Virus record (IMG/VR): IMGVR_UViG_3300006046_000007
Coordinates: 1-55,526 of that record
Direction: 5' to 3' (one strand)
DNA: 55,526 nt
From: a virus
Lineage: Duplodnaviria > Caudoviricetes
Position 1 is the first letter of the stretch. Every line of letters begins with the position of its first letter. Positions 17,682 to 24,728 of the stretch are shown piece after piece. Position numbers and translations under genes: made by a program. Under the pieces are notes generated by a model. It had not been told where the DNA came from. It made no database searches and saw only the letters and a list, made by a program, of their open reading frames with translations.

Positions 17682-18503
17682 TCAGGAGTTAGGGTTGATT
17701 ACCCCATTATCGATAGCCCACACGTAGTCCTTGTAGTGGACGTTTATCACCTGGCTCTTCACCGTCCAACCCGGGAAGTCACCAGTGTACCTAAGCTTCT
17801 TGCGGCTCGGATTGATTGGTTTGGCAACTGAGTTTCCAGTCGAACCACGCACACAAGGCACATGGAACGGATCGGGATTGATCGTCGTGTTGTCATCCCA
17901 CATGTTTCCATTGACTAGGAAGTGGTCAAAGCCGCCAATGCCGACTTGACCGCATCGGAACCGTTGAAGATGGCCAGTTGCATCATTCTGATCAGATGTG
18001 AACCGGAAGTCGAGCCAACGAGGATCATACCAAGTGTGCCGAGTAGTAGAGCTGATCTGACGCCAGCAGTACTTATAGACGATTTCTGTTCGCGTCCTGA
18101 CCTTCACATAGTCAACAGTGATGACTGGACCAAGGATCCGCAATCCGTCAGGGACGAGCCCGTAATCGATTGCGACCTCACCCTCCCACTTGCAGTTGGT
18201 GGCAAGCTTAGTGATGTCCCACGGGTCGGTGTCGTCAGAGGTAATGGCCGCAACTGTGTCATCACCAGGGTAAAGACCTGCCTGAGCTGCGGTCGGCGCG
18301 TCTTCGAGGATAGTTGAAGTCCAAGGCCCGCCTGGTACCTGTGTCTGATCTGACTGGTAAGGATCACCAGCAGGCGTCAGTGGCAAGAAGCAGAAATCAT
18401 CGATGTCTGGGGGACAATCTGTATCTGCATTGGCCGATGGTGCCGACAGCATAGGCAAAGCAACTGCAATAGCCGCTGCGGCAATTATGGTTCTGATATT
18501 CAT
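17682..18503 (-). CDS. Secreted hypothetical protein
   Basis: Signal peptide MNIRTIIAAAAIAVALPMLSAPSANA; several Cys. Confidence 0.65.
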   Translation of the reverse strand: MNIRTIIAAAAIAVALPMLSAPSANADTDCPPDIDDFCFLPLTPAGDPYQSDQTQVPGGPWTSTILEDAPTAAQAGLYPGDDTVAAITSDDTDPWDITKLATNCKWEGEVAIDYGLVPDGLRILGPVITVDYVKVRTRTEIVYKYCWRQISSTTRHTWYDPRWLDFRFTSDQNDATGHLQRFRCGQVGIGGFDHFLVNGNMWDDNTTINPDPFHVPCVRGSTGNSVAKPINPSRKKLRYTGDFPGWTVKSQVINVHYKDYVWAIDNGVINPNS

Positions 18504-18896
18504 TTTACTCCTAGATAGATAAGATAGAGACCTGCAAGCACCAGTGCCCACATGCCAATGTAGATGATGGCAATGACGACAACGTTCTTAACGGTTGTCA
18601 ACCTAACCATTATGCCACCCCATTCAGAATTTGATATGCCTTGAAAACCAGTCGAGAAGCCATTTCAACCATCGAGACTCTACTCCCATAACCCCTCATC
18701 CGAGAAGAGCTATCATGTACTGAAGCCAGGTGCTGTGGTCTTCAGTAACGTGGTTTTGACTCGGATAATGACTGTGCCTTTCGGGCCGGCATAGTGTGCA
18801 ATTGGGACTAATGGGTCCTGGTTTAAGGTCTCTAGACCTATCGGCCCTATCGCAGATATCAGACATGTGTTTGATCCTCCTTTAGAGATGGGTAGA

Positions 18897-18929
18897 GGGC
18901 AGTTTTTTAAAGCAGGCATGCCCAGGCCT
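18897..18929 (-). ncRNA. Small H-type pseudoknot, copy A
   Basis: AGGC-CUGGGCAU-GCCU-GCUUUAAAAAAC-UGCCC; S1 AGGC/GCCU, S2 GGGCA/UGCCC. Confidence 0.65.
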
Positions 18930-19155
18930 CCACGGTGTCCCCGCTGTTTAATGTTACGGTAGGCTAGGAAGAATTCCTTGCAGGGAGCGCTTCCCGCTTC
19001 GGTCGGCTGCAACCGCCTTATCAAAGCTGACCTACCGGCGTTTTTTAACTACCTAACAATCCGCTGTACGTCGCTTCCTCCACCACGCGAACCTATGGCT
19101 CAGATGGTTTCACCAGTCGCTACGGAATGCCGTTCGGTCTACACCTGACCGCTCA
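18897..19155 (-). ncRNA. Structured RNA unit A (pistol-1 3' product)
   Basis: From the predicted cleavage site to pseudoknot A; stems CGGUAGG/CCUACCG and UUGCAG/CUGCAA. Confidence 0.5.
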
Positions 19156-19285
19156 CCCATTGGACGCCGGAAATGAGATCCCGTTCCGGTCTTTTACATC
19201 TGAGCTTCAGGAGAAGGAGATAACCCGCAGCTAGAGTCCAATGACGCACTAGGCCTAAGAGCTATTTATACTCGCCTAGTCGAGT
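19151..19285 (-). ncRNA. Pistol self-cleaving ribozyme 1
   Basis: ACUCG-ACUAGG-CGAGU-AUAAAUAG-CUC-UUAGG-CCUAGU-GCG-UCAUUGGAC[insert]GUCCAAUGG-GU-GAGC: P1, 6-bp pseudoknot, UAAAUAG, P2, GCG, P3 and GU site all present. Confidence 0.9.
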
Positions 19286-19686
19286 TACTCGTCTCTGCCG
19301 AAGGCCGAGTCGCGAGCCTTACGGAGGAGACGGATGGTTCGGTTGATGGCGCTCCGGTTGAACCAGGTCCAAAGACCATCAACGCCGGCCGTTGAGCCGG
19401 TGACTGCGTCCAAGCAGGCACGACCAAGTTTGTTCATGTACTCTGCTGCTGCGTCATCATCAACAGAGTCCTCAGGAACAAAGCCGAAGTCTTCTCGAAG
19501 TAGCTTGAAAAGGATTCTCCCGATCTCAGTCTGAGTAGTAGTCCCACCATAGACCTGATCGATGAAATGCAGTGTGGGTTGGTCGATACGAGATTCAAGA
19601 CCAACTCCAACAGAAGCCAGACCAGGATTCCACTGGACCAAGAGGTCGTAGGAGGCCTGATCTTCTGGGGTGATTCTTTCTTTCAT
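19285..19686 (-). CDS. Hypothetical protein
   Basis: 133 aa, AAAGG RBS; its stop codon abuts pistol 1. Confidence 0.75.
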   Translation of the reverse strand: MKERITPEDQASYDLLVQWNPGLASVGVGLESRIDQPTLHFIDQVYGGTTTQTEIGRILFKLLREDFGFVPEDSVDDDAAAEYMNKLGRACLDAVTGSTAGVDGLWTWFNRSAINRTIRLLRKARDSAFGRDE

Positions 19687-19850
19687 GGTGTTACCTTTCT
19701 TTTCGTTGGCTCCCGCTTATCGGGAGTAGATTGTCCTTGTTGTAGCCAGGCCCAGGACCTTCCCACAGGTTTAACATTTATCACCTGCGACCATGCGAGT
19801 ATTAGCGTCTCAAATGCTTCGACATTCTCGGGTTCATGATCGGCGATGTA

Positions 19851-20114
19851 TTATGAGAGATTTTGTCCCACGATCTGGTCGAACTGCCAGTTCGTAAGAA
19901 ACTTCTGGATCTCGGGGTCCAGCATGAGCTCTGGTCGATCGCGCTCCACGACATCAGTCATAAGACGACCGAACTCGATGAGTTGCAAGTTGCTCTCAAC
20001 CAATATCCGATTAGCCTTACGAAGCTTTGAAGTGATCTGCCACCAACCAATTTGGTTAGCGAGAAAGGCGATCTTAATTAGGGCGATTCGTGTTGCCGGG
20101 TCCATCTTCTTCAT
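19851..20114 (-). CDS. Hypothetical protein
   Basis: 87 aa ORF with AAGGAG RBS. Confidence 0.65.
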   Translation of the reverse strand: MKKMDPATRIALIKIAFLANQIGWWQITSKLRKANRILVESNLQLIEFGRLMTDVVERDRPELMLDPEIQKFLTNWQFDQIVGQNLS

Positions 20115-20152
20115 CGATAACTCCTTAGATAGGGGATGATGGGATGTGTTTG

Positions 20153-20305
20153 CTAACGATTGAGGACCACCAGAAAGAAGTATAGGGCTAGGAAGAACAG
20201 CCCGAAAGCAAGGAAGTCAATCTTCTTCTTTGCGAATTCGAAAATGAACCCTAGCGCAAACGCGAACACGGAAAGGAGCAAAATGATGAAGTAGAACGTA
20301 TGCAT
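20153..20305 (-). CDS. Small two-TM membrane protein (MHTFYFIILL...)
   Basis: 50 aa, AGGAGG RBS, two hydrophobic helices. Confidence 0.7.
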   Translation of the reverse strand: MHTFYFIILLLSVFAFALGFIFEFAKKKIDFLAFGLFFLALYFFLVVLNR

Positions 20306-20487
20306 GATGCCTCCTATGTTTGAATGGAGAGGAGGACAAGACCCACGAAAATCCCATCCCCCTCTCCTACTGTAGGTAGCGTTTTCAATTGACTTTAATC
20401 ACTTCGACTCATCGCACTTCGATCCGGCCAAAGGTGTTGCCCAAACCTCACGATTTCACCAATGAACTACGCTACAGTGACTTGAGG

Positions 20488-20514
20488 GGGCCTTTTTGCC
20501 GCATGCCCAGGCGG
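20488..20514 (-). ncRNA. Small H-type pseudoknot, copy B
   Basis: CCGC-CUGGGCAU-GCGG-CAAAAAG-GCCC. Confidence 0.65.
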
Positions 20515-20683
20515 GATCTTTAATCGGTAAGGTGCCCGGGTCTCCGCCCAGTGGTCTGCAACCTTTCTGCTTCGTCACCCTTGCAGAGGGTGCTTATTGA
20601 CGCAAGAACACGCCTTTTATGTACCTTACCTACGGCTAAGGGAGTGACTGGTTAGCAACGCCAATTCACTTGCCGATTTCCCA
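20488..20683 (-). ncRNA. Structured RNA unit B (pistol-2 3' product)
   Basis: Stems GGUAAGGU/ACCUUACC and UCUGCAA/UUGCAGA; ends in pseudoknot B. Confidence 0.5.
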
Positions 20684-20814
20684 CGACGCGGCTGGTAGTT
20701 GTCCATGTCGGTGAAAACACCTGTCGACTACCAATTACTTCCAAGCTCAAGGCCTGTAACTTGGAACCGCGCCCGCTCTGAGCCTAAGGTCTATTTAACC
20801 TCGCTCAGACGAGG
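20680..20814 (-). ncRNA. Pistol self-cleaving ribozyme 2
   Basis: CCUCG-UCUGAG-CGAGG-UUAAAUAG-ACC-UUAGG-CUCAGA-GCG-GGCGCGGUU[insert]AGCCGCGUC-GU-GGG; core intact, P2 weak (two C-G pairs plus A.G). Confidence 0.8.
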
Positions 20815-20853
20815 GAGTAGTTTAGTGTGGATCGAGGTCATGCTCAGGACCCC
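20815..20853 (-). ncRNA. Small H-type pseudoknot, copy C
   Basis: GGGGUC-CUGAGCAU-GACCUC...UAAAC-UACUC; abuts pistol 2. Confidence 0.55.
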
Positions 20854-20959
20854 GCAATGAGGCATTCAGTTGAACATCTATAGTGGGCGTTACCCACCAT
20901 CCGTCATCGAACTCACCTCCATCTAAATATGCACGCTCTTTCGAGCCTGACTATAGTAG

Positions 20960-21039
20960 CTCGCACGACGGGATTCGAACCCGCATACGCCGCCCTGGAT
21001 GTCCAGGCCCGAACGCTTTACCAATTAAGTTACATGCGA
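20960..21039 (-). tRNA. tRNA-like element with extended, non-canonical anticodon arm
   Basis: Acceptor UCGCAUG/CGUGCGA, D arm ACUU-AAUUGGUA-AAGC, T arm GCGGG-UUCGAAU-CCCGU; anticodon/variable region 29 nt instead of ~22, with CCUGG-ACAU-CCAGG hairpin; 3' end G-CUA, not CCA. Confidence 0.7.
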
Positions 21040-21086
21040 TGCCTCCCTAACCGTCACACTCGGGGGAACGCAGACGGCTAGAAACT

Positions 21087-21188
21087 CTAGTACCTTCGCT
21101 TCTTTGACGGATTCGTGTTGAAGACCCACGAATAGATCAAGCAGAAGAGAAGAATGGCGAAGACCACACCAATAACAAGTCGGACCAT
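21087..21188 (-). CDS. Small membrane peptide (MVRLVIGVVF...)
   Basis: 33 aa, AAGGAG RBS, one TM helix. Confidence 0.55.
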   Translation of the reverse strand: MVRLVIGVVFAILLFCLIYSWVFNTNPSKKRRY

Positions 21189-21595
21189 AATAACTCCTTT
21201 TATGTGATAGTTAGATCTTGACTACGTTGCGAAACAAAGAACTCTCATCGTGTGAGGTGAAGACGTACATCTCGAAAAAGACCATTGGTACGAAGAACTG
21301 GCAGTCCAAAGGCGAGCCCTCGTCACGTAGGAACCAGCCTTCTTCGTGCTCCTCAAGCCACTGTAAGGCCATCTCTAAGTCAAAATCTCGTCCTGCCTCG
21401 CTCCGAATCACACCTCGAAGATTCTCTGGTGTAATCTTGATTGCGTAAGCTTGCACAGGACGGCCTCTCACTTAGATGTGATCCACTGAATAAGCTCGAC
21501 AAACCCCCACCCGAACAAGAAAACGATTGCTAGAATGATGAAAACAATCACCCAAACAACGCCCCAGGCGAACTGATTGGTCTTTTTCTCATCCA

Positions 21596-22072
21596 TCAGA
21601 TCTCCTCGTAGTCAGCATACTTGGCCGCGAAACGGGATTCCTTGACCTTGGCATAGAGTTCTTTGACGTATGCCGTGATCCCAGAGTTCTGTCCATTCAC
21701 CCAACGAGATGGAGTGATGATAACATCGAGTTGCTCAAGAGTGTCTCGACGAATATCAGCTAGGTCACGTTCTGTTGCACGAAGCTTTCGCTCTCCCTTA
21801 AGAAGGTAGATCTTAGGCGGTTCGAACTTGTAAGAGATCTTGATCTTTAGCAGGTGCTCGTCAGGATCGCCTTCCTCATACCCAGGCATATCTCGTACTG
21901 CCCAGCCATCAGCGCGCATCTTGTCTGCAATCTCCTCAGATAGCATGGCAGTGAAGTTATGAGCACCTTCTGCGTTGAACGTGTCTTCCCGTCCATCGAA
22001 ATGCGAGAATGCCCACTTGACCTTGACGTCTTCAAGCTCGACATCGTTGACCCAATTACGATCTTCAGGCAT
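21596..22072 (-). CDS. Putative single-stranded DNA-binding protein
   Basis: F-x-G-RE..FN.EG..NF and ITAYVKELY patterns, acidic C-tail, located in the replication region. Confidence 0.6.
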   Translation of the reverse strand: MPEDRNWVNDVELEDVKVKWAFSHFDGREDTFNAEGAHNFTAMLSEEIADKMRADGWAVRDMPGYEEGDPDEHLLKIKISYKFEPPKIYLLKGERKLRATERDLADIRRDTLEQLDVIITPSRWVNGQNSGITAYVKELYAKVKESRFAAKYADYEEI

Positions 22073-24728
22073 TACGACTCGCCCCCTTGTTCGGGTTGAA
22101 GTCACAGTTCGGGTTGGTGGGGTTGTGGTAAGGACTGCACCCATCACTCAAGACCTCAGGTACTGGTTCCTGAGTCACGGGCGTCTCTACGACATCCTCC
22201 GACTCGACTTCATCTTCCTTCGGCTCAGGAACGTCCAACCCGTCGACGATCTGTTCCACTTCCCCTGCAGGCTGATGAAGGAGAATCTTGTTAAGAGCCG
22301 ACCGGTGTCGCTTGGCGTGGAATCGATGCTGCTTAGCAACAGAAAGGCACCATTGGTTAACTGTCTCGTTCTTGAGCTTCGGGGCCAGATTTTCGGCGAA
22401 TTCAGCGATATCTTCGTTGTATGTGATGGCATCTTCGTGATAGGCCTGGTCTTTTTGCATCAGGTCGTCTCTCTTCTTTCTCTGGTATTCTGAACAGGGA
22501 TAGCAGTGATCATCACTGCAATAGGTTCAGCCTGTTCAAGGAACTCAGCCAACATCTGCCCGTTAAGTCCAACGGCACTGATTTCAATCAGCACTTTGTC
22601 GGGCTCTCGGGAGATTACTGCATGTCCCATAATGTGCTTGTAGTTGGATCCGATAACTACCGGAACGGCACGTTCAGTACGTCGAGCCTTGTCAGCCACT
22701 AACCGCCGCCTCTTCTAGTTCGCGACGCTGACGTGCCTGAGCCGCCAGAAGGTCCTGACAGTGTAGACAGTTTTTGTCGATCTTCTTCCACGAATGCTTC
22801 TGGTCATGGTTGTTGCGCTGATTTTCTCGAGCGCGATGCTCTAGGCGACCCCGCTCTAGCTCCTGAGCCTTCTGCCCGGAACGCTTCACGTCTTCCAAGA
22901 ACTTAGCTCTCTTTGCGAGAGCTTGTTCGTGCTTCTGCTTACGAGTAGCCATGATGTCTCCTAAATATAGATGGTTACCGATGGTTGGTGATCTTGGTTC
23001 GTCCTCGTTTAGCTTCTTCTGTTGCTTTGTTGATGGCTTTGACGCCCTCTTTGAATGCCCGGTCCATATCAGCGCTTGCACGCCTAATGGCATCGGTCAT
23101 TTCTCGAAACGAAGCTTGAATTGCTGCTGAATCTTCCGGCGAGATCTCAAGGTAGACCTTTGCCGGCTCAGCTGTCCTTCGGTGCCAAAATGCCATGTCT
23201 ACCTCCCTCTCGGTCGTGGCAGTCGAACGCCTGCATACCCCTTGATGGCTGCTTTGAGTAGGATCTCTTCGCACTCCTTGACCGAGTAGCCTAGAAGCTT
23301 AGCGGTCTCTTTTATGTTTCCGGCGTTCAAGAGAACGTAGGGCTCTCGACCTTTGTCCTTTCTTCTTACTCGGTTTGACATCTGATAGGTCCTTTTCTTC
23401 GACATGCCCTAGGGAGAGGCAAGATATAGATTGATCGACAATCTGATGATACTGCTTATCTGTGATCACAGCAGACATGTCCATGTAGTTGCCATCCGTA
23501 TCTACGACAGCCTCTCCAATGACCTTACGGACACCATCTTCGTAGACGACTAGAGGGACCCGTTGAGTACTCATCTCACTCCTCGATGATGTCCAGAATG
23601 TTCAAGATCATGCTTTGCACGGTTGAACACGGCTGCTCCACAGTCGAGACATTCGTACAATCCGGCGATGAGCGGGCCTCTGTAACGTTCTTTCCACCCG
23701 TTCACTTGTGATCGAGATTCTTGAGTACCTCATCCAAAGGAGTAGCCATGATGTGCCCCGGCTGATTCCTCGTTGCTTTAGCGATCTCCTGCATCGTCAC
23801 CCAGTAACGAACACGAAGCGGGAGTCGACTAGCCATTTCCATCGCTGCCCACTCTCGAGTTCGCCGAAGCCGCTCCATAGTGGACATAGATGGAAGAGTC
23901 CAAATCGTTTTCAAACGCATGGCTCTTTCCTTTCTATGCGAGTTATTCTTTCCTAGTTAATCATTCGATAGCTTCTTTAACCTTGGCGAGCTGTTGATCT
24001 CTGTTAACATGAAAAGGGTCATGTATCGATCCTCGAAGCCGTCTTTTGTCTCTATCCGAGAGTGAGTTAAAGAACGCTTGGCCTAAGCGCTGTTTTCCTC
24101 TTATGAAGTATTTAAACTTCTCGAGGTCTCCTCCATGAGTGACTAAATATTCTTTAACTAGAGTTGAGGTGGATTCAGGCATTACTTTTTCACCGAAGTC
24201 CAACCGCATCGAGCACAGTGAAGTTCCATCCGACTGTTGTAGGTCGCTGCATCAAGTTGGTGACCCATTGCCCAACAGACGTACTTGTTGCTGACAGACT
24301 TTGCAATATCAGTAATGGACTTCCAGAAGATCATTAGACATCGTCTTCCTCGAACGGGTTGGGGAGGTCGGGATGATCTCCATTGACGTGCTTCTTGGCT
24401 CGGTCCTCAGCTGCTTTCGTGTTTCCTCCGGTGTAGGGACGATCATCACAGTAAGGGCAATAGACGGTTGTTACTGAGGTGGTTTCACTATCCATCATTC
24501 ACCTTTCTTGGTCGAAGATCGTGAGCGCGAATATCGATGATCTGGATGCGACTGCTGGTATTACCCCAAGTTCCTTCGGGAGAATGTCCTCTTGCGACAC
24601 CTCGATCTGAGTTCTGACCATGCTCGAAAGCAGCACTAGCGATCTGCACTGCGTCGCTGATAGAGTTGGCTGTGACCTCGACCTCACGAGTCTGAGTCAC
24701 AACGAAATGTTTCATCTCAGGCATAACG
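22065..24728 (-). CDS. Run of small hypothetical genes
   Basis: ORFs 22065-22460, 22460-22699, 22692-22952, 23299-23574, 23702-23920, 23961-24182 and neighbours. Confidence 0.6.

What the first reader, a model, noticed from the sequence alone, without database searches (positions are those of the whole stretch)
20680..20814. Pistol ribozyme 2: compensatory changes relative to pistol 1, weak P2, same two-hairpin P3 insertion architecture
Seen: P1 and the pseudoknot differ from pistol 1 but keep pairing (UCUGAG/CUCAGA versus ACUAGG/CCUAGU). P3 encloses two hairpins (UUCCAAGUU/AGCUUGGAA and UGGUAGU/ACUACCA). Both ribozymes span 135 nt. P2 has only two Watson-Crick pairs plus an A.G. Inference: slower or regulated cleavage at 20684/20683.
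Basis: partly seen in the sequence, partly recalled or inferred. Interest (0 to 1): 0.7.

Follow-up and report, generated by a model that had tools for sequence, protein, structure and literature searches.

The report
Branched-arm pistol ribozyme in soil phage
This is a genuine copy of the known "pistol" self-cutting RNA whose third arm carries a two-hairpin branch; related phages share both the branch and the loose second arm, and the RNA probably cuts a long non-coding phage transcript into separate folded pieces.

Summary
On the minus strand, 20814-20679 carries an intact pistol core (Rfam RF02679, 46.9 bits). It has a 5-bp P1, a 6-bp pseudoknot, and G32, G33 and G40-C41-G42. A 7-9 bp P3 encloses two hairpins, followed by G20684/U20683 and a weak P2 (GACC/GGGA).

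Against pistol 1 there are four compensatory pairs, one in P1 and three in the pseudoknot. The shared "135 nt" is partly a boundary choice: with equal rules the lengths are 135 and 136.

Rfam aligns only the 5' half. A strict shuffle test supports the distant 3' strand (92 of 5000). A lenient score does not (211 of 2000).

The branched P3 is a recurrent subtype. The junction layout 0 / UUAAA-like / 0-1 nt occurs in five other viral, MAG or metagenomic pistols, including the positional orthologue in a collinear relative.

The P2 mismatch is common: 23 of 100 surveyed pistols have two P2 pairs, and 5 of 9 branched ones mismatch at that same position. "Slower or regulated cleavage" is therefore not supported, and it is untested.

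The likely role is transcript processing. It would release a downstream folded RNA whose 5' GGGA re-pairs with UCCC. This scan has noted expanded-P3 pistols and pistol-headed phage RNAs before, on other DNA.

The parts
20679..20814 (-). Pistol ribozyme 2, full extent (136 nt when P2 is counted as 4 nt)
   Evidence: Rfam RF02679 scores 46.9 bits against a gathering score of 34.5, on 20765-20814 only. The 3' part was assigned by hand and by scripts. Fold.
20799..20814 (-). P1 hairpin CCUCG-UCUGAG-CGAGG. The loop 20804-20809 is the 5' strand of the pseudoknot.
   Evidence: Sequence. Aligned to model positions 1-16.
20792..20798 (-). Conserved linker UUAAAUA
   Evidence: alignment. Invariant TAAATA in all relatives aligned.
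20788..20791 (-). P2 5' strand GACC
   Evidence: Sequence. L015 has the same 4 nt; L146 has GCCC.
20774..20787 (-). Core junction UUAGG, pseudoknot 3' strand CUCAGA, and GCG. It holds purine 32 (G), G33, G40, C41 and G42.
   Evidence: alignment. The roles of these residues come from passages of the review PMC6154101.
20767..20773 (-). P3 5' strand GGCGCGG
   Evidence: Pairs with 20685-20691 in the MFE and centroid folds. Shuffle tests.
20739..20766 (-). Hairpin a inside P3 (UUCCAAGUU...AGCUUGGAA)
   Evidence: L087 has a look-alike UUCCAGCUU...AGCUAGGAA at the same place.
20734..20738 (-). Junction strand GUAAU between hairpins a and b. Relatives have UUAAA here.
20693..20733 (-). Hairpin b inside P3 (UGGUAGU...ACUACCA, with an inner GGUG-UUUU-CACC hairpin)
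20685..20691 (-). P3 3' strand CCGCGUC (G20692 is left unpaired or pairs with U20766)
20683..20684 (-). Predicted scissile dinucleotide G20684 / U20683
   Evidence: It sits between P3 and P2 as a 2-nt junction. Harris et al. describe this junction as strictly conserved in length and modestly conserved as GU (PMC4604425, section 5). Not assayed.
20679..20682 (-). P2 3' strand GGGA. It could also form the 5' strand of a helix with UCCC (20640-20643) in the cleaved product.
   Evidence: Sequence. Folds of the first 48 nt of the product, and of the L146 counterpart, give the same shape.
20636..20683 (-). 5' domain of the downstream RNA ('unit B'): GGGA, a 9-nt loop, a hairpin, then UCCC
   Evidence: The z-scores are not significant on their own (-0.13 and -1.08). 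The support is the same layout in the orthologue with a different hairpin sequence.
19151..19285 (-). Pistol ribozyme 1 (comparison copy): P3 9 bp, GU, P2 GCUC/GAGC
   Evidence: Rfam 45 bits..
19016..19157 (-). 'Type A' pistol-trailing RNA 5' module, starting at the pistol 1 cut site
   Evidence: Best hit of model R2 in the whole window: 16.6 bits, E 0.027
20959..21039 (-). tRNA-like gene 145 nt upstream of pistol 2
   Evidence: ARAGORN calls tRNA-Ser(GGA). Rfam tRNA 37.3 bits.
21596..22147 (-). ssDNA-binding / annealing-type protein gene, the synteny anchor
   Evidence: PF24083 at 2.5e-31. phrog_4787. tblastx match to L146 7175-7570.

Best explanation
Window 20814-20679 (minus strand) is a functional-looking member of the pistol class of self-cleaving ribozymes. 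It belongs to a subtype whose P3 arm opens into a three-way junction with two hairpins.

Shown:
- an intact catalytic core, P1 and pseudoknot;
- a P3 closing stem followed by the 2-nt G-U junction and a short P2;
- the same branched layout in pistol 1 and in five other viral, MAG or metagenomic pistols, including the positional orthologue in a collinear relative.

Inferred:
- The RNA cuts itself between G20684 and U20683 by the usual internal transesterification.
- The 5' product is the upstream non-coding RNA plus the whole ribozyme body, ending in a 2',3'-cyclic phosphate.
- The 3' product starts with 5'-OH U-GGGA.
- After cutting, GGGA leaves the weak P2 and pairs with UCCC 40 nt downstream. 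This closes the first domain of a folded downstream RNA.

The ribozyme lies in about 730 nt without ORFs of 60 aa or more (20360-21086). On this reading it acts as a punctuation and end-maturation device for structured phage RNAs in the replication-gene region. It is not read as a slowed or switched enzyme. The two-pair P2 with A.G and G.A is taken as a tolerated natural variant.
For: Core:
- RF02679 scores 46.9 bits against a gathering score of 34.5, with every upper-case consensus position of the 5' half matched.
- G32, G33, G40, C41 and G42 are present. Their roles come from passages of PMC6154101.

3' half:
- P3 and both hairpins are in the MFE and centroid folds, z = -4.12.
- Strict shuffle test: 92 of 5000.

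Family pattern:
- Of 120 distinct pistols taken from three viral-contig pattern scans, 100 have a confident 3' end.
- 27 of those 100 have P3 of 60 nt or more. Two hairpins is the commonest layout among them (11 of 27).

Branched subtype:
- Junction strands are 0 / 5-11 nt / 0-1 in L015, L059, L073, L087, L146 and both window copies.
- The middle strand is UUAAA... in L015, L059, L073, L087 and L146.
- P3 pairs 2, 3 and 5 each show 3-4 pair types among the nine.

Orthology:
- L146 is collinear with the window over more than 6 kb (tblastx 45-67% identity).
- Its PF24083-type gene lies upstream of its single pistol. That pistol's core is 93% identical to 20815-20773.
- It has a two-hairpin P3, GU, and the same GGGA.

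Product helix: GGGA/UCCC is predicted in both the window and L146.

Context:
- No ORF of 60 aa or more lies in 20360-21086.
- The consensus scan found no sigma-70-type promoter in 18400-21700 and 7 terminator-like sites; it lists none at the ribozyme.
- Pistols stand directly at the 5' end of a covarying RNA family in 21 of the 61 sources searched.
Against: - No cleavage assay exists for this sequence.
- Rfam's model does not align the 3' half at all.
- The lenient P3+P2 score is not above chance (211 of 2000).
- No relative shares the sequence of the two inner hairpins (blastn-short against all loci held at that call, before L141-L146 were fetched, found only self-hits). These hairpins therefore have no covariation of their own, only a shared topology.
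- P2 has two standard pairs.
- The downstream 'unit B' shows no thermodynamic signal (z = +1.12) and is not found by the type-A model.
- The survey is biased. The scan patterns fixed TAAATAG, TTAGG or TTARG, and in two scans the pseudoknot letters.
Confidence: 0.75

Rival explanations
1. Slowed or gated ribozyme. The weak P2 must compete with the stronger GGGA/UCCC helix. The CUGAG loop of the hairpin just upstream (20846-20842) could also compete for the pseudoknot strand CUCAG. Cleavage would then depend on folding order or on a factor.
For: - P2 has only two standard pairs.
- The GGGA/UCCC helix is predicted here and in L146.
- Rfam's alignment shows that GACC could also pair with GGUU at 20768-20765.
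- The upstream hairpin loop contains CUGAG.
Against: - Two-pair P2 helices occur in 23 of 100 surveyed pistols.
- The same position is unpaired in 5 of 9 branched relatives.
- The competing pairings are short and were not tested for conservation beyond one orthologue.
- Nothing here measures rate.
Confidence: 0.12
2. Decayed copy. The 5' core survives, but the true 3' strand was lost when about 70 nt were inserted. The P3 closure at 20685-20691 would then be fortuitous and the RNA would not cut.
For: - Rfam aligns only 50 nt.
- The lenient shuffle score is not significant.
- P2 is weak.
Against: - The strict test gives 92 of 5000.
- P3 closure is part of the MFE and centroid folds.
- The same layout occurs in pistol 1 with a perfect 4-bp P2 (3 of 2000 shuffles).
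- It also occurs in five other viral, MAG or metagenomic pistols, including the orthologue.
- All core residues are intact.
Confidence: 0.08
3. The P3 branch is itself a second functional RNA, such as a protein-binding or docking domain. The ribozyme would be its carrier, and the cut would define that RNA's 3' end rather than the downstream RNA's 5' end.
For: - A different insert, 'domain X' (GGGCGCUAR...UACUGUCUG...GUCAGRCCGCCC), lies inside P3 in L009, L010, L018, L036, L071, L090, L105 and L143.
- The same motif stands free upstream of the pistol in L015 and L126, and downstream in L012.
- The UUAAA junction of the branched subtype is conserved in five sequences.
- An RNA-library contig covers 20711-20933.
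Against: - The window's inserts are not domain X.
- They share no sequence with any relative.
- Hairpin sizes vary widely, 17-57 nt.
- RNA-library contigs cannot show ends or prove transcription.
Confidence: 0.2

Closest known systems
Pistol self-cleaving ribozyme class (Rfam RF02679; Harris et al. 2015, PMC4604425; env25 structure as reviewed in PMC6154101)
   Same: P1, a 6-bp pseudoknot between the P1 loop and the P2-P3 junction, the AUAAAUA-type linker, purine 32, G33, G40-C41-G42, P3, a 2-nt G-U junction, P2, and association with phages.
   Different: - Here P3 is a 7-9 bp stem opening into a three-way junction with two hairpins (about 75 nt). It is not the simple hairpin of the Rfam model.
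- The Rfam model therefore aligns only the 5' 50 nt. It scores 41-50 bits for such copies against 60-73 bits for short-P3 copies.
- P2 has two standard pairs plus A.G and G.A.
Gordonia phage GTE7 / Amore2 / HayZem intergenic pistols (JN035618.1, ON526973.1, PP978842.1)
   Same: The core is 90.7% identical to 20815-20773, with the same pseudoknot letters UCUGAG/CUCAGA. These are actinobacterial phages. The match is unannotated in the records.
   Different: The two fetched (GTE7, Amore2) have P3 as a single long hairpin (about 12-14 bp), total length 85 nt, and a full 4-pair P2 GCCG/CGGU; HayZem was not fetched.
Positional orthologue in MAG contig L146/L144 (JASLCW010000470.1)
   Same: - It lies in the same genome slot, downstream of the PF24083-type gene in a collinear phage-like contig.
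- It has a two-hairpin P3 with junction strands 0/5/0, GU, the P2 3' strand GGGA, and a GGGA/UCCC product helix.
   Different: It is 107 nt. The junction is UUAAA rather than GUAAU. The P2 5' strand is GCCC (three pairs plus G.A). The hairpin sequences are unrelated. Only one pistol was found in that MAG.
HDV-like theta ribozymes next to phage tRNAs (PMC10879173; search listing and start of abstract only)
   Same: A small self-cleaving ribozyme set beside tRNA-type genes in phage genomes, presumed to act in RNA end processing.
   Different: It is a different ribozyme class and fold. Here the ribozyme is 145 nt downstream of a tRNA-like gene, not abutting it.

Membership tests
Pistol ribozyme (RF02679) | Covariance-model score at or above the curated gathering score | tested here: met
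   46.9 bits against 34.5, E 1.7e-05 for the whole window. Only 20765-20814 is truly aligned.
Pistol ribozyme (RF02679) | P1 hairpin whose loop forms a 6-bp pseudoknot with the P2-P3 junction | tested here: met
   CCUCG/CGAGG, and UCUGAG with CUCAGA: 6 of 6 Watson-Crick pairs. Three of these pairs differ on both sides from pistol 1.
Pistol ribozyme (RF02679) | Highly conserved core nucleotides (linker AUAAAUA, purine 32, G33, G40, C41, G42) | tested here: met
   UUAAAUA, and UUA-G-G ... G-C-G. Residue roles come from passages of PMC6154101.
Pistol ribozyme (RF02679) | P3 helix followed by a junction of exactly two nucleotides (usually GU) and then the P2 3' strand | tested here: met
   GGCGCGG/CCGCGUC, then G20684-U20683, then GGGA. 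Strict shuffle test 92 of 5000; lenient score 211 of 2000. The junction rule is from PMC4604425, section 5.
Pistol ribozyme (RF02679) | P2 helix (4 pairs in the Rfam consensus) | tested here: inconclusive
   There are two standard pairs (C-G, C-G) plus A.G and G.A. The same count occurs in 23 of 100 surveyed pistols.
Pistol ribozyme (RF02679) | Site-specific Mg2+-dependent self-cleavage | not testable with these tools
   No assay was possible. RNA-library contigs cannot show ends.
Branched-P3 ('Y-type') pistol subtype (defined here) | Three-way junction in P3: no nucleotides before hairpin a, an A-rich strand of 5-11 nt between the hairpins, and 0-1 nt after hairpin b | tested here: met
   Junction strands are 0/6/0 (or 0/5/1 by hand) for pistol 2. 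They are 0/9/1 for pistol 1, 0/5/0 for L015, L059 and L146, 0/8/0 for L073, and 0/11/0 for L087. Pistol 2 has GUAAU where five relatives have UUAAA.
'Type A' pistol-trailing RNA (models R1/R2, defined here) | Match to the covariance model starting at the cut site | tested here: not met
   No hit after pistol 2 at E up to 10 with filters off. The hit in the window follows pistol 1 (19016-19157, E 0.027).

The most novel reading that the evidence does not exclude
In this lineage of soil actinobacterial-type phages, pistol ribozymes are dedicated end-maturases for structured phage RNAs of the replication-gene region.
- The P3 arm of the ribozyme is a docking site for a second conserved RNA module. 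That module is either the UUAAA-junction branch seen here or 'domain X', which also occurs free-standing.
- One cut would then release two folded RNAs at once. The first is the ribozyme-plus-module with a cyclic-phosphate end. The second is a 5'-OH trailing RNA that re-uses the P2 strand in its own terminal helix.
- The weak P2 would be selected because it lets go of the product.
Probability: 0.3. Interest if true: 0.7.

Novelty: new variant of a known kind. Interest (0 to 1): 0.45.

Why it matters
The biological job of pistol ribozymes is still open. The class was defined with a simple P3 hairpin.

- A recurrent branched P3 with a conserved junction means that standard annotation sees only half of such ribozymes and places their cut site wrongly. 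Rfam scores drop to 41-50 bits and the 3' half is misaligned.
- The setting is a cut site fused to the 5' end of conserved folded RNAs next to a ssDNA-binding gene. This gives a concrete, testable role: RNA end maturation with product release by strand re-pairing.
- The comparison also shows that a two-pair P2 with an A.G mismatch is normal natural variation. This matters for anyone predicting activity from secondary-structure descriptors.

Tried and rejected
1. Rfam's own 3' alignment of pistol 2 (GACC with GGUU at 20768-20765) was rejected. It leaves 5 nt for P3 and puts C at the cut-site U.

2. Close relatives by protein. The search for related loci with the PF24083-type protein in viral contigs found none. 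The orthologue came instead from the genome contigs pattern scan.

3. Sequence homologues of the two inner hairpins, of unit B and of the pre-pistol region. blastn-short against the loci held (L003-L140 and the window; L141-L146 came later) gave only self-hits, plus a 17-nt match of unit A to L032.

4. Model R1, built from 8 sequences, found nothing convincing in the window. R2 found only the stretch after pistol 1. No hit in L146.

5. Drum RNA. I recalled an association with ribozymes. The passages read in PMC5737381 do not say that, and Rfam gave no such hit. Dropped.

6. A tRNA inside P3. L012's insert has a T-arm-like hairpin, but ARAGORN calls no tRNA there or in the window's inserts.

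7. Thermodynamic signal of the trailing RNAs: z = +1.12 for unit B and +0.28 for unit A. No support.

8. The MAFFT alignment of seven branched pistols (A5) was too poor in the insert to build a third model. Pair tables were made instead by anchoring at the junctions.

9. Sequencing runs.
   - Two metatranscriptome runs of one study hold small parts. X10 has one 223-nt contig at 20711-20933. X11 has contigs at 18941-19133, 18850-18941 and 19567-19736. All are at depth 2.5-4.3.
   - No RNA-library contig crosses 20684/20683 or 19156/19155. DNA contigs of X7 and X8 cross 20684/20683; none of the four runs covers 19156/19155.
   - This is one study, at low depth, from contigs only. It is not evidence of cleavage or of absence.
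   - X7 and X8 showed no sequence differences, so they give no natural variation.

10. Literature.
    - 'pistol ribozyme' with 'bacteriophage' gave 31 papers.
    - 'pistol' with 'extended P3' and 'ribozyme' gave 2 papers, the one listed being about twister.
    - The 'pistol ribozyme' mutational search gave nothing on branched P3 or P2 tolerance.
    - I found no description of a branched P3 in those listings.
    - Weinberg et al. 2015 (PMC4509812) is not held. Its supplementary alignments, and all supplements, were not seen and may already contain long-P3 members.

Full report
WHAT IS THERE

The window is a whole 55.5-kb virus record with nearly all genes on the minus strand. Rfam finds two pistol ribozymes on that strand. 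One is at 20814-20765 (46.9 bits) and one at 19285-19219 (45 bits). The gathering score is 34.5. Rfam also finds a tRNA at 21039-20960. A permissive scan of 18000-22000 adds no other credible family.

Read on the minus strand, pistol 2 runs as follows:
- P1 is CCUCG-UCUGAG-CGAGG.
- The linker is UUAAAUA.
- The P2 5' strand is GACC.
- The junction UUAGG, the pseudoknot strand CUCAGA and GCG follow.
- The P3 5' strand is GGCGCGG.
- Hairpin a (UUCCAAGUU...AGCUUGGAA), the strand GUAAU, and hairpin b (UGGUAGU...ACUACCA) follow.
- After an unpaired G, the P3 3' strand is CCGCGUC.
- G20684, U20683 and GGGA close the element.

Purine 32, G33, G40, C41 and G42 are all present. The review PMC6154101 names these residues as important around the G53-U54 site (passages).

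THE 3' HALF

Rfam's alignment of the 3' half is forced. It leaves one nucleotide for P3 and places a C where the cut-site U belongs.
- It is part of the MFE and centroid folds of the 135-mer (z = -4.12, 0 of 200 shuffles as stable).
- Nine contiguous pairs next to a purine-U were reached in 92 of 5000 shuffles of the downstream 400 nt.
- Pistol 1 has the same layout with a perfect 4-bp P2. Its strict test gives 22 of 5000 and its lenient score 3 of 2000.
- Relatives show the same layout, as described below.

Against it, my lenient P3+P2 score for pistol 2 is not above chance (211 of 2000).

By equal rules the two copies are 135 and 136 nt.

COMPENSATORY CHANGES

Between the two copies, one P1 pair changes on both sides (A-U to C-G). 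So do three of the six pseudoknot pairs.

RELATIVES AND SURVEY

The core of pistol 2 matches unannotated intergenic DNA of Gordonia phages GTE7, Amore2 and HayZem at 90.7%. The core of pistol 1 matches Cellulosimicrobium phage DS1. In GTE7 and Amore2, the two records fetched, P3 is a single long hairpin and P2 has four pairs.

Three pattern scans of viral contigs yielded 120 distinct pistols with at least 420 nt of downstream sequence. All three patterns fixed parts of the core, so the sample is biased.

Of those 120, 100 have six or more contiguous P3 pairs beside a purine-U. Among the 100:
- The cut-site dinucleotide is GU in 82 and AU in 18.
- P2 has 0/1/2/3/4 pairs in 2/3/23/59/13.
- P3 is 60 nt or longer in 27.
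- Within those 27, two hairpins is the commonest predicted layout (11 of 27).

Short-P3 copies score 60-73 bits in Rfam. Long-P3 copies score 41-50 bits.

THE BRANCHED SUBTYPE

Constrained folds show a repeated three-way junction. No nucleotide lies between P3 and hairpin a. An A-rich strand lies between the hairpins, and 0-1 nt follows hairpin b.
- The middle strand is UUAAA... in L015, L059, L073, L087 and L146.
- It is UGUAAAAGA in pistol 1 and GUAAU in pistol 2.
- Hairpin a of L087 begins UUCCAG and ends AGGAA, like UUCCAAG...UUGGAA here.
- Across nine such ribozymes, P3 pairs 2, 3 and 5 each show 3-4 standard pair types.
- The two P2 pairs beside the cut site are paired in 8 of 9 and 9 of 9.
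- The next P2 position, which is A.G here, is unpaired in 5 of 9.

From recalled knowledge, not from a call: junctions in which the strand after the third helix is shorter than the strand before it tend to fold that helix back along the first. That would bring hairpin b towards the core. Also recalled: 5'-GA/3'-AG tandem mismatches are among the more stable ones.

ORTHOLOGUE

A genome-collection scan found the same core in a 50.6-kb MAG contig labelled Marmoricola sp..
- The contig is collinear with the window over several genes (tblastx 45-67% over L146 2805-5915 against window 30017-26964).
- Its PF24083-type gene matches window 22009-21614.
- Its only Rfam pistol lies downstream of that gene.
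- That pistol is 107 nt. It has a two-hairpin P3 (junction strands 0/5/0), GU, and P2 GCCC/GGGA.

The 3' strand GGGA is therefore shared. The window's A.G is a one-base difference on the 5' strand.

In both genomes the first 48-51 nt after the cut fold the same way. GGGA pairs with UCCC across a 9-nt loop and a hairpin of unrelated sequence. The individual z-scores are not significant.

CONTEXT AND LIKELY ROLE
- 20360-21086 has no ORF of 60 aa or more.
- The consensus scan found no sigma-70-type promoter in 18400-21700 and 7 terminator-like sites; it lists none at the ribozyme.
- Upstream lie a tRNA-like gene and a hairpin. Downstream lies "unit B".

In relatives, pistols stand exactly at the 5' end of a covarying RNA. 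That RNA has hairpin H1, hairpin H2, an invariant A-run followed by CCGCUU, a long-range helix and a terminal hairpin.
- Model R1 found it in 21 of the 61 sources searched.
- On the model-fitted alignment, 92% of cells pair. There are 66 double-change cells against 21 in shuffles, and slid controls are far lower.
- Model R2 found further members in L143, L142 and L032, which were not in its seed.
- In the window its best hit is 19016-19157, at the pistol 1 cut site (E 0.027). Nothing follows pistol 2.

I therefore read pistol 2 as the processing site that frees a different trailing RNA ("type B"). The P2 strand would be re-used in the product. This last step is inference.

KNOWN AND NEW

Membership in the pistol class is met on all sequence features except a full P2. 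Activity is untested.

The branched P3 with a conserved junction was not described in what I could search. I saw search listings, sections 3 and 5 of PMC4604425, and passages of PMC6154101. The founding paper and all supplements were not available, and they may already include such members.

This scan's earlier notes had already flagged pistols with expanded P3 (e1-3287452, e1-6259049). They had also flagged pistols heading folded phage RNAs (e1-5826063, e1-5826049, e1-5885464, e1-5796646). These are leads, not independent evidence. My own data agree with them.

VERDICT
- This is a real pistol ribozyme of a branched-P3 subtype.
- The inference of slowed or regulated cutting is unsupported.
- Interest is moderate.

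Noticed in passing
L007, L009-L012, L014, L015, L018, L020, L032, L036, L042, L043, L052, L059, L071, L086, L090, L105, L126, L129, L138, L142, L143; window 19016-19157 (-): A conserved folded RNA of roughly 230-300 nt begins exactly at the pistol cut site. It has H1 with an AAGG loop, H2, an invariant A-run plus CCGCUU, a long-range helix and a terminal hairpin. It matches no Rfam family. In at least 10 loci it lies downstream of a PF24083-like ssDNA-binding gene and a ~100-aa 'FVRKPF' protein.
   Followed up: partly
P3 of the pistols in L009, L010, L018, L036, L071, L090, L105, L143; free-standing in L015 and L126 (upstream of the pistol), L010 (second copy) and L012 (downstream): 'Domain X' is a conserved branched motif GGGCGCUAR ... 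UACUGUCUG ... GUCAGRCCGCCC. It occurs either inside the ribozyme's P3 or as a separate element nearby.
   Followed up: partly
L012, about 150-250 nt upstream of its Rfam pistol (minus strand of the locus): A second pistol-like core whose P1-P2 linker seems to be interrupted by two hairpins after AUAAA. Rfam does not call it at the gathering score.
   Followed up: no
L012 pistol P3 insert: A three-branch insert whose last hairpin carries a T-arm-like GGUUCGAUUCC loop. ARAGORN calls no tRNA there.
   Followed up: no
L041, L045, L048, L075, L096, L097, L114, L140 (the long contigs among them are 154-187 kb): Short pistols (63-64 nt) are followed by a different conserved stretch: a hairpin, then ...GAGUCUAACCAACUAAUAACC..., then a hairpin and GGGAAGG.
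   Followed up: no
L028 (4091-8574) and L122: Runs of pistols, six in L028, each end about 20 nt before a Shine-Dalgarno sequence and start codon. This is operon punctuation.
   Followed up: no
window 20815-20853, 20488-20514, 18897-18929 (-): Hairpins with loop CUGRGCAU, followed by an A-rich strand and a short complement to the loop. The first abuts the 5' end of pistol 2, and its CUGAG could in principle compete for the pseudoknot strand. Seen.
   Followed up: partly
L014 3344-4053 (-) and L025 10281-10684 (+): tmRNA calls lie near pistols. The call in L014 spans 710 nt against a 374-position model. In L025 a pistol starts 8 nt after tRNA-Val inside a 22-tRNA cluster.
   Followed up: no
L146 9351-9430 (+): ARAGORN calls an odd tRNA-Ala with its anticodon at position 26, downstream of the orthologous pistol. 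In the window the tRNA-like gene lies upstream of the pistol instead. The modules are shuffled between the two phages.
   Followed up: no
L014, L020, L036, L090, L126, L146 flanks: A recurrent promoter-like box ...TATAATGAGA... occurs before and after the RNA region in relatives. The same string was not seen in the window stretch 19000-21200 that I read.
   Followed up: no
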